Positions 4,378-6,366 of a DNA stretch of 64,000 nucleotides are shown piece by piece; the stretch's first letter is position 1, and every line of letters begins with the position of its first letter. The position numbers were made by a program, and so were the translations under genes. Source of the stretch: Candidatus Magasanikbacteria bacterium RIFOXYB2_FULL_38_10 (GTDB lineage: Bacteria > Patescibacteriota > Patescibacteriia > Magasanikbacterales > UBA10003); contig MFQT01000017.1 in the NCBI GenBank assembly GCA_001783145.1, forward strand, positions 30,119 to 94,118, written 5' to 3'. A model generated the notes under the pieces. That model was not told the origin of the DNA, did not search any database, and was given only the letters and a program-made list of their open reading frames with translations.

Positions 4378-4456
4378 GTCACTAGTGTTTAAAAAAACTG
4401 ACAAAAAATTTTAATTGATTTTTTACCAAAAAGTTTCACCCACTAGCATACACCTC

Positions 4457-4485
4457 TTGACAAAATCTGTCAAATGTGCTATGAT
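4457..4485 (+). promoter_or_regulatory. consensus sigma70 promoter with extended -10 (TTGACA - 17 nt - TGcTATGAT) driving the high-GC ORF
   Basis: TTGACA at 4457-4462, a 17-nt spacer, TGn extended -10 at 4477-4479 and TATGAT at 4480-4485. The -35 overlaps a TTGACAaaatcTGTCAA palindrome. Confidence 0.65.
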
Positions 4486-4676
4486 ATGTAGTTAATTTGA
4501 TCTTTGATAATAGGGTGAAGGCTTTGTCCAACCAGATAAGTTTGGCTAAATTAAGGCAAAAATAAAGAAAATAAGATTAAATTTGTCCTAAATAAGCTTG
4601 ATTTATCCGGTTGGGCGAAGGTTTTCGCCCTCTCGAGGAAGGCTCCCCTTAAGGAGCTGTTTGGTAGGAGGTTCCT

Positions 4677-6155
4677 ATGGAACTCGTTCGTCAGTTCTTC
4701 GCGGCCCTGGTGTCCATGACGGACACGGCCATCGCGGCCGTGTTCCAGAGCCTGGAGCAGGAGAACGTGCTGACCAGCGCGCGTCTGCGCGCCGCGGTCA
4801 AGAAGAGCGAGGGTAACGAGTTCCGGCGCCTCAAGGTGGCTCTGGGCTATGCCGTGGACCACCAGCTCACCCTCTCCATCGCGAACATCCCGTTCATGAC
4901 GGACGAGGAGCTGGTGCTGGCGTTCCTGGAGGCCACGCCCGACCAGCGCGCCGAGTTCGTGGTGGCGCTGGACGAGATCACCGACGAGAGCGGTGTGCGC
5001 GGTCAGCAGGTGCTCTCCTCCGTGCAGGAGCGCCTCAACATCGAGAAGGCCGTGGCGCAACGCCAGGCCGAGGAGGAGCGTCTGGAGCGCGAGCTGGCCA
5101 AGAAGGCCGCCAGGCGCCTGGAGCTCCTGGAGCACACGGATCGCCTGATCCTGCACATCCTGCGGACCGGCGACGCCTGCGATATGACCGACGAATTGGC
5201 GGTCCAGTACATAGAGGATCAGCCCCTGGGCTACTTCAAGGTGCTCTCGGACATCGCCGGGCTCATCACCCCCGCCACCGCGGCGGAGGGCGAGGCGGCC
5301 CTGACCGGCCTGGACGCGCTGCGCGGCGGCACCATCGTGGACATGCTCACGGGCGCCACCCTGGCGGTGAAGGACGCGCGGAGCATCCGGGGTTGCTTCA
5401 TCACCGACGAGGAGGGCGCCAAGCGCCTCGTCAAGAAGCTCCCGAAGAAGGAGGGGGGAAGGGAGATCTACAGGCACCTGACGGGCGAGAGCCCCGAGGG
5501 TGTCCTGGAACGCCTGGACAGGCACGACGCGGAGTACGCGGCGCGCCAGAAGCGCGACGAGGCCTTCGTGGCCGAGGTGAAGAAGGCGATCGGCGAGGCC
5601 GACGCCACCTTCGTGGCCCTGGCCAAGGCGGTGGCCGAGCTGGTGGAGATCAACTCCGTCGGGACCAGCGGGCCCGAGGAGTGGAAGATGCGGATCATCC
5701 GCGACATCTCCGGCGAGTTCGGCGAGTTCCTGCGGCGGTCCTACATCGGCCAGTTGCGCCAGGCCTACCCCGACGCCTCGACGATCCCGGCGCTCAACGC
5801 CCGGATCGAGGAGGTCAAGGCGGCCTGGAACCAGGCGCGCGCGACGGGCGCCCCCTCCTACGAGCAGGATGCCATCCTCAAGGAGGTCCACGTCCTGGAG
5901 CGGCACCGGCAGTACCTGTCCGAGGCTCCCCAGCTCAAGCCGCAGCAGGGCAAGCCGACCGTCGGCACCCACGCCCACACCAAGGGCAAGGAGGGTGCCC
6001 CGGTCCTGACCGACCACTCCCGCGACGAGGACAGGGAGCGCAAGGAGCGCGAGCGGCGCGACGCCGACCGGAAGCGCACCCTGGACACCAAGGGCAAGGG
6101 CGGCGGCCAGCCCCAGCTCACGGGCAAGGGCAAGCACCAGAAGGGCAAGAAGTAG
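4677..6155 (+). CDS. hypothetical protein of foreign (high-GC) origin; alpha-helical, acidic/Arg-rich body with Lys/Gly-rich basic C-terminal tail
   Basis: 492-aa ORF preceded by GGAGG 5 nt upstream of the ATG. The composition is completely unlike the flanking genes. It is very GC-rich and nearly every codon ends in G or C, which identifies the plus frame as the coding frame. No motif that I recognise (no P-loop, no HExxH). The C-terminus is KGKGGGQPQLTGKGKHQKGKK. Confidence 0.7.
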   Translation: MELVRQFFAALVSMTDTAIAAVFQSLEQENVLTSARLRAAVKKSEGNEFRRLKVALGYAVDHQLTLSIANIPFMTDEELVLAFLEATPDQRAEFVVALDEITDESGVRGQQVLSSVQERLNIEKAVAQRQAEEERLERELAKKAARRLELLEHTDRLILHILRTGDACDMTDELAVQYIEDQPLGYFKVLSDIAGLITPATAAEGEAALTGLDALRGGTIVDMLTGATLAVKDARSIRGCFITDEEGAKRLVKKLPKKEGGREIYRHLTGESPEGVLERLDRHDAEYAARQKRDEAFVAEVKKAIGEADATFVALAKAVAELVEINSVGTSGPEEWKMRIIRDISGEFGEFLRRSYIGQLRQAYPDASTIPALNARIEEVKAAWNQARATGAPSYEQDAILKEVHVLERHRQYLSEAPQLKPQQGKPTVGTHAHTKGKEGAPVLTDHSRDEDRERKERERRDADRKRTLDTKGKGGGQPQLTGKGKHQKGKK

Positions 6156-6285
6156 CCCAGCTACTTCGGCTCCTCAAGTGCCCCCAGTGTCCCTGGCAAC
6201 ATTAACAACGCGGCGGCCAACTAAATAACCGCCCACAACGTCACATGATCTTTCAACAGGTTACAGAGGGTCGCAACGATCCTTA

Positions 6286-6340
6286 CCGGCAATCAAAGTT
6301 CAGTGCTAACACACTGTTCCCACGATTGCCGGTTTTTTTT
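6286..6340 (+). terminator. intrinsic terminator closing the high-GC cassette
   Basis: Stem ccggcaatc (6286-6294) / gattgccgg (6324-6332) with an inner cagtg/cactg stem, followed by a run of 8 T. Confidence 0.7.
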
Positions 6341-6366
6341 ATTTCTGCTAAAATGAAGTAAGGATT

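What the first reader, a model, noticed from the sequence alone, without database searches (positions are those of the whole stretch)
4440..6345. Self-contained high-GC foreign gene cassette embedded in an AT-rich genome
From about 4607 to about 6332 the base composition flips from the host's AT-rich style to very GC-rich. Inside is a 492-aa ORF (4677-6155) in which nearly every codon ends in G or C. That codon usage is typical of a high-GC donor (actinobacterial or myxobacterial style) and would be poorly matched to this host's AT-biased tRNA pool. The ORF is framed by host-style signals. Upstream is a near-perfect extended -10 sigma70 promoter at 4457-4485. A GGAGG Shine-Dalgarno lies 5 nt from the ATG. 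A strong two-tier hairpin plus T8 terminator sits at 6286-6340. The protein is all-alpha, rich in Glu, Ala, Arg and Leu, and ends in a Lys/Gly-rich basic tail (KGKGGGQPQLTGKGKHQKGKK). It has no P-loop, metal-binding or other motif I can recognise. The flanks carry several accessory features. A tRNA gene and an att-like repeat lie upstream. A perfect 25-bp inverted repeat lies downstream. The neighbouring gene is a translin-family gene. Together these make this the one clearly accessory, possibly mobile, locus in the window. The function of the product is unknown.
Basis: partly seen in the sequence, partly recalled or inferred. Interest (0 to 1): 0.85.

Follow-up and report, generated by a model that had tools for sequence, protein, structure and literature searches.

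The report
Conserved GC-rich gene in AT-rich CPR bacteria
This is a gene of unknown function that a family of tiny, AT-rich groundwater bacteria (Patescibacteria) has kept at the same place in the genome for a long time. In every species the gene stays unusually GC-rich, and comparing species shows that changes toward A/T are being weeded out. So it is not a recently acquired foreign cassette: some selective pressure is holding its DNA (probably its mRNA) GC-rich against the genome's own drift toward A/T.

Summary
Window 4600-6335 is 64-70% GC in a 39%-GC, 854-kb Patescibacteria genome. It holds a 492-aa ORF (4677-6155, GC3 0.95) with a consensus extended -10 promoter, an AGGAGG Shine-Dalgarno, a strong two-tier terminator with a U8 tail, a tRNA-Lys just upstream and a translin gene downstream. 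The gene belongs to a small protein family with no known domains (13 clusters at 50% identity). Its members sit at the same locus (MurG-tRNA-Lys-[gene]-translin-GT2-Mur ligase) in at least six genomes and metagenome contigs from at least two genera of a Magasanikbacteria-related family. Every member is GC-rich (GC3 0.63-0.99) inside AT-rich flanks. Independent assemblies span both AT/GC junctions, so this is not an assembly chimera. Between species, synonymous third-position changes in this gene are overwhelmingly G<->C (25 of 31 polarized changes, only 4 G/C->A/T). Neighbouring genes show mostly A/T<->G/C changes (Fisher p 4e-24). So the GC-richness is actively maintained, probably by selection acting at the mRNA level. 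The host carries tRNAs for G/C-ending codons. The protein is a soluble, acidic, all-alpha protein with a conserved basic Lys/Gly tail; its function is unknown.

The parts
4302..4377 (-). tRNA-Lys(ttt); conserved neighbour just upstream in all family genomes examined
   Evidence: ARAGORN; Rfam tRNA 68.6 bits
4457..4485 (+). sigma70-like extended -10 promoter of the GC-rich gene (-35 TTGACA 4457-4462, -10 TGnTATGAT ending 4485); similar motif upstream of the L001 homolog
   Evidence: promoter scan 11/12; L001 comparison
4600..4676 (+). GC-rich part of the 5' leader: 7-bp GGGCGAA/UUCGCCC hairpin and AGGAGG Shine-Dalgarno (4666-4671)
   Evidence: sequence; fold (not unusual vs shuffles)
4677..6155 (+). 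GC-rich protein-coding gene (492 aa; GC 0.69, GC3 0.95): soluble, acidic, all-alpha body with a conserved basic Lys/Gly-rich C-terminal tail; novel family with no Pfam domain
   Evidence: ORF; homologs with conserved synteny; AF2 model pLDDT 63, all-alpha; composition
6285..6341 (+). intrinsic terminator: two-tier GC hairpin 6285-6333 plus U8 tail
   Evidence: fold MFE -23.1, z -6.1; terminator-like hairpin also after the L001 homolog
4600..6335 (.). GC-rich block matching the transcription unit (CDS plus GC-elevated UTRs)
   Evidence: composition profiles
6397..7029 (+). translin-family gene; conserved downstream neighbour in all family genomes examined (not co-transcribed: terminator in between)
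   Evidence: Pfam PF01997; synteny

Best explanation
This is a vertically inherited, family-specific gene of CPR bacteria (Patescibacteria, a Magasanikbacteria-related family). It is transcribed alone from its own sigma70-type promoter to an intrinsic terminator. It encodes a novel soluble all-alpha protein with an acidic body and a conserved basic Lys/Gly-rich C-terminal tail; I infer, without evidence of function, that the product binds nucleic acid. The gene's extreme GC content is not a relic of a recent transfer. It is held in place against the genome's strong A/T mutational bias by purifying selection that removes G/C->A/T changes at synonymous sites, while G<->C swaps are tolerated. I infer that this selection acts on the transcript: the GC rise spans the UTRs, and the mRNAs of family members fold more strongly than synonymous-shuffled versions. 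The likely reason is a requirement for a stable or highly structured mRNA, for example resistance to AU-directed ribonucleases. The ancient origin, perhaps a transfer from a GC-rich donor into the family's ancestor, cannot be traced. Shown: conservation, synteny, composition, the substitution pattern and the transcription-unit signals. Inferred: the mRNA-level cause and the nucleic-acid-binding role.
For: Conserved locus and synteny: MurG-tRNA-Lys-[gene]-translin-GT2-Mur ligase in the window, in L001 (Logan groundwater contig), in G001/L004 (Ca. Magasanikbacteria MAG), in G003 and G006 (a second genus) and in L104. GC-rich in every member, in AT-rich flanks: GC3 0.95, 0.99, 0.79, 0.73, 0.79, 0.79, 0.97, 0.63 against flank GC 0.36-0.49. 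Junctions spanned by independent assemblies. Window vs L001: neighbouring genes are 70-75% identical in protein, but the GC gene shows 39 S<->S vs 13 W<->S third-position differences, against 28 vs 301 in the neighbours (Fisher OR 32, p 4e-24). Polarized with L004 as outgroup: 25 S->S, 4 S->W, 2 W->S in the GC gene, while the neighbours are dominated by W<->S changes. Highly expressed genes of this genome (EF-Tu, EF-G, ribosomal proteins) have GC3 about 0.3, so translational selection does not explain it. The 3' UTR is also GC-elevated (0.51). Local synonymous-permutation folding: family genes fold more strongly than their shuffles (mean z -0.6 to -2.5; all 22 windows in L104) vs neighbours -0.05 to -0.9.
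Against: There is no expression, transcript or function data; no RNA run was listed. The mRNA-structure excess is modest and varies between members. A locus-specific GC-biased conversion or mutation process cannot be excluded by sequence alone. The polarized counts are small (about 30 changes). GC3 varies among members (0.63-0.99), which selection alone does not obviously predict. The genome also holds other GC-rich genes (SufS, OmpA-domain protein, IS110 transposase). At least the SufS is GC-rich only in this genome, not in its relatives. So GC-rich genes can arise here by other routes, and the family could in principle be an older case of the same thing.
Confidence: 0.6

Rival explanations
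1. Recent horizontally acquired, possibly mobile GC-rich cassette, inserted next to tRNA-Lys.
For: Strong compositional deviation. Adjacent tRNA-Lys, a classic insertion site. A tRNA-3'-end copy nearby.
Against: Same locus in at least six genomes and contigs of at least two genera. No integrase or recombinase in 3.8-9 kb. The tRNA-end copy lies on the far side of the tRNA and is absent from L001. No homolog outside this lineage. The GC-rich SufS control shows that a drifting foreign gene loses GC in relatives, but this family keeps it everywhere.
Confidence: 0.05
2. Assembly chimera or contaminating contig from a GC-rich organism.
For: Sharp AT/GC junctions.
Against: Independent Logan assemblies span both junctions. 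Same arrangement in independent genomes and metagenomes.
Confidence: 0.01
3. The GC content is kept by a locus-specific GC-biased process (gene conversion or mutation tied to transcription of this unit), not by selection.
For: The GC rise extends into UTRs. G<->C substitutions per G/C site are about 2x those at neighbouring genes, hinting at higher mutability of this locus.
Against: GC-biased gene conversion (gBGC) is weak in bacteria (established knowledge). The process would have to stop within about 200 bp, since translin is AT-rich. There is no paralog or GC-rich template in the genome to convert from.
Confidence: 0.15
4. Codon usage as a translational switch. The gene is made efficiently only when the tRNAs for G/C-ending codons (Lys-CUU, Glu-CUC, Gln-CUG, Arg-CCG and others), or a particular state of tRNA modification, prevail. 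Selection maintains the G/C-ending codons for that reason.
For: The host keeps a full set of such tRNAs. The gene uses almost only G/C-ending codons (AAG 33/33, GAG 49/52). Highly expressed genes do not.
Against: Untested. It does not explain the GC-elevated UTRs or the excess mRNA folding.
Confidence: 0.15

Closest known systems
Horizontally transferred genomic islands in Patescibacteria (e.g. the GC/tetranucleotide-defined islands in PMC12455944)
   Same: Genes whose composition departs from the genome, in streamlined CPR genomes.
   Different: Those islands are identified as recent transfers that ameliorate over time. This gene is at a conserved locus across genera, has no outside homolog, and keeps its GC by selection.
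Translin family (PF01997), the neighbouring gene
   Same: Conserved neighbour in all family genomes. Eukaryotic translin binds RNA and ssDNA (established knowledge), which fits a possible shared nucleic-acid role.
   Different: The GC-rich protein has no translin domain. It is transcribed separately, with a terminator in between.
Streptomyces bldA/TTA rare-codon translational control (established knowledge)
   Same: Codon choice that depends on particular tRNAs could gate expression of a gene.
   Different: Here a whole gene uses the genome's rare G/C-ending codons, not a single rare codon, and this is untested.
Loci where GC-biased gene conversion raises GC and speeds protein evolution in mammals (established knowledge)
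   Same: GC elevation confined to one locus, together with fast protein evolution (41% identity vs 70-75% for neighbours).
   Different: This is in bacteria, with no evidence of a recombination hotspot, and the boundaries coincide with a transcription unit.

Membership tests
Mobile genetic element / recent genomic island | integrase, recombinase or transposase inside or beside the island | tested here: not met
   ORFs 3000-9000 are MurG, the GC gene, translin, GT2 and Mur ligase.
Mobile genetic element / recent genomic island | direct repeats (att/target-site duplication) bounding the insert | tested here: not met
   The only repeat is a tRNA-3' copy on the opposite side of the tRNA, absent in L001. 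The 26-bp inverted repeat belongs to the translin start.
Mobile genetic element / recent genomic island | close homologs in unrelated donor taxa / patchy presence in close relatives | tested here: not met
   No homolog outside this CPR family. Present at the same locus across at least two genera. Absent only from G004, and not found in G002/G005, where the region itself was not found.
Mobile genetic element / recent genomic island | composition deviating from host | tested here: met
   GC 0.69, GC3 0.95 vs genome 0.39 / 0.35.
Translin family (PF01997) | translin domain | tested here: not met
   The GC-rich protein has no Pfam hit. The translin domain belongs to the neighbouring gene.
Genes under translational selection (highly expressed) | codon bias shared with the genome's highly expressed genes | tested here: not met
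   EF-Tu/EF-G/ribosomal protein genes have GC3 about 0.3 and the genome-wide AAG/GAG usage.
Locus-specific GC-biased gene conversion | recombination hotspot / GC-biased spectrum among new mutations | not testable with these tools
   It needs within-population polymorphism data.

The most novel reading that the evidence does not exclude
The gene's product or transcript works in, or must be expressed under conditions set by, a GC-rich partner. One version: CPR episymbionts pass this mRNA or DNA into a GC-rich host cell, so its codon usage is tuned to the host rather than to itself. Another version: the transcript is a dual-function structured RNA whose GC-rich fold is selected alongside the protein.
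Probability: 0.07. Interest if true: 0.9.

Novelty: new variant of a known kind. Interest (0 to 1): 0.5.

Why it matters
Streamlined AT-rich genomes are thought to be shaped mostly by mutational bias, with foreign GC-rich genes ameliorating or being lost. Here a whole gene family in CPR bacteria keeps GC3 of 0.73-0.99 across genera, and the substitution pattern shows A/T alleles being purged. This makes a testable case of selection on nucleotide composition strong enough to overcome AT pressure in a single transcription unit. The family is also an uncharacterized, lineage-specific gene conserved next to tRNA-Lys and translin in uncultured symbionts, so it is a candidate for a host-interaction or RNA-related function. 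GC-rich contigs like this one also tend to drop out of metagenome bins (the 1.8-kb L002 contig), so such genes are probably under-counted.

Tried and rejected
Protein family searches found nothing significant: Pfam, NCBIfam and PHROGs (best E 0.03-0.1, chance). The family profile found no PDB sequence hit. Structure: the AF2 model (pLDDT 63, pTM 0.33) had no Foldseek PDB match with E<=0.001. ESM Atlas structure and feature searches gave only TM about 0.2 and unrelated hits. VIA-wide gave only generic helical Z 7-8.5. Rfam found nothing beyond the tRNA; miRNA-family hits were far below gathering, i.e. chance. The look-up of sequencing runs: no RNA holder was listed; this is not evidence either way. 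The GTDB genome-contig scan with the protein found no relative. A shared upstream motif among the genome's GC-rich genes was looked for: none found. Translational selection was considered and rejected, because highly expressed genes are not GC3-rich. The SufS control shows that at least one other GC-rich gene here is lineage-specific, not conserved, so the conserved GC state is particular to this family. The codon-permutation fold test with whole-gene shuffles was replaced by the more conservative local shuffle, because MurG also scored z -2.5 in the first.

Full report
Where it sits. The window is contig C17 of an 854-kb, 20-contig, 39.4% GC genome with 100% estimated completeness. The neighbouring Mur ligase's nearest GTDB relatives are Patescibacteria, best Ca. 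Magasanikbacteria at 72% identity. The neighbourhood is MurG (GT28; 2810-3982), tRNA-Lys (4302-4377, -), the GC-rich ORF (4677-6155, +), translin (6397-7029), a GT2 glycosyltransferase and a Mur ligase.

Checking the observation. The GC step is real: 0.64-0.70 in 4601-6200 against 0.35-0.45 around it. The ORF has GC3 0.95, higher than 99.9% of the genome's roughly 769 genes. The sigma70-like extended -10 promoter (11/12; 6 found vs 0.5 expected), the AGGAGG Shine-Dalgarno, the two-tier terminator with U8 (z -6.1), the tRNA-Lys, the translin neighbour and a perfect 26-bp inverted repeat are all present. Independent Logan assemblies of several groundwater samples span both AT/GC junctions, so this is not a chimera.

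Is it foreign and mobile? No, by four lines of evidence.
- Protein searches find only a few relatives: P0002 (41%), P0003 and P0004, all in the same lineage. A profile search of 1.84 billion representatives finds 13 in all.
- Every member examined sits at the same locus: MurG-tRNA-Lys-[gene]-translin-GT2-Mur ligase in L001, G001/L004, G006 and G003, and with an M28 peptidase inserted in L104. The flanking DNA of window and L001 is only about 75% identical, so these are separate species, and G003/G006 are another genus.
- There is no integrase. The tRNA-3'-end copy lies on the other side of the tRNA and is missing from L001.
- Every member is GC-rich in AT-rich flanks: GC3 0.63-0.99 vs flank GC 0.36-0.49.

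The GC content is actively maintained. Window vs L001:
- Neighbouring genes are 70-75% identical in protein and differ at 42-50% of third positions among identical-amino-acid codons. Their changes are mostly W<->S.
- The GC gene is about 46% identical in protein but differs at only 24% of such positions, 39 of 52 being G<->C. Fisher OR 32, p 4e-24.
- Polarized with L004 as outgroup: 25 S->S, 4 S->W and 2 W->S in the GC gene. In the neighbours, S->S changes are rare and W<->S changes dominate.

Under the genome's A/T pressure, and over a divergence that nearly saturates third positions in the neighbours, a neutral GC-rich gene should have collected many G/C->A/T changes. Almost none were fixed. 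G/C->A/T changes are being removed while G<->C swaps are tolerated. The gene also evolves fast at the protein level.

Translational selection is not the cause: EF-Tu, EF-G and ribosomal-protein genes have GC3 of about 0.3. The GC rise extends into the UTRs (3' UTR 0.51). A local synonymous-shuffle test shows that family mRNAs fold more strongly than their shuffles (mean z -0.6 to -2.5; 68-100% of windows) vs -0.05 to -0.9 for neighbours. This is modest support for selection on the transcript. A control: the genome's GC-rich SufS (GC3 0.91) has its nearest relative in G009 at 42% identity with normal GC3 0.35. GC-richness is therefore not conserved for every GC-rich gene here, only for this family.

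The protein. It has 492 aa, pI 6.1 and no transmembrane segment. It is acidic and all-alpha (AF2 pLDDT 63), with two helical regions and a conserved basic tail (K/G-rich 'TKGKGG...GKK'). No family or structure database finds a relative. I infer, with low confidence, that it binds nucleic acid. Its function is unknown, and its conserved pairing with translin is only a lead.

Verdict. This is a real, vertically inherited, family-specific gene of Patescibacteria. Its extreme GC is maintained by selection, probably at the mRNA level. The 'recent mobile cassette' reading is rejected. Interest 0.5, because a gene-level composition held against strong A/T bias in a streamlined genome is unusual and testable with population data.

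Noticed in passing: the window-specific 26-bp hairpin enclosing translin's start; a window-specific 31-bp tRNA-Lys 3'-end copy; about 30 other GC-rich genes in the genome, including an IS110 transposase and a protein with a HupB-like K/A/P tail.

Noticed in passing
window 6366-6391 / 6415-6440: A perfect 26-bp AU-rich inverted repeat folds into a 26-bp hairpin (MFE -31.4, z -7.7). Its upstream arm pairs with translin codons about 7-15, so the loop holds translin's start codon: a possible translational control or RNase III site. It is not conserved in L001.
   Followed up: partly
window 4225-4255 vs 4292-4322: A 31-bp copy of the tRNA-Lys 3' end about 67 bp away. It is present in this genome but not in sister genome L001: a small lineage-specific duplication or integration scar.
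   Followed up: partly
genome C10:26243-26857 (-) (locus L098): A GC-rich (GC3 0.97) protein with no Pfam hit and a HupB/histone-H1-like K/A/P-rich C-terminal tail.
   Followed up: no
genome C2:6638-7912 (-) (locus L101): An IS110-family transposase that is GC-rich (GC3 0.71) in this AT-rich genome: a likely recent mobile element from a GC-rich source.
   Followed up: no
genome C10:36987-38237 (+) (locus L097/L105): A GC-rich SufS-type cysteine desulfurase (GC3 0.91), besides a second, ordinary SufS-like copy (C10:51565-52722). Its closest relative is in another family (42%), which has normal GC.
   Followed up: yes
genome, multiple contig ends (C1 0-5 kb, C11 0-3 kb, C15 26-32.8 kb): Several GC-rich gene clusters lie at contig ends. 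GC-rich stretches may break assemblies and be lost from metagenome bins, as with L002 (a 1846-bp contig holding only this gene).
   Followed up: no
Logan contigs over window 4336-4378: Contigs of every sample break at the tRNA-Lys, probably because tRNA sequence is shared across the metagenome.
   Followed up: no
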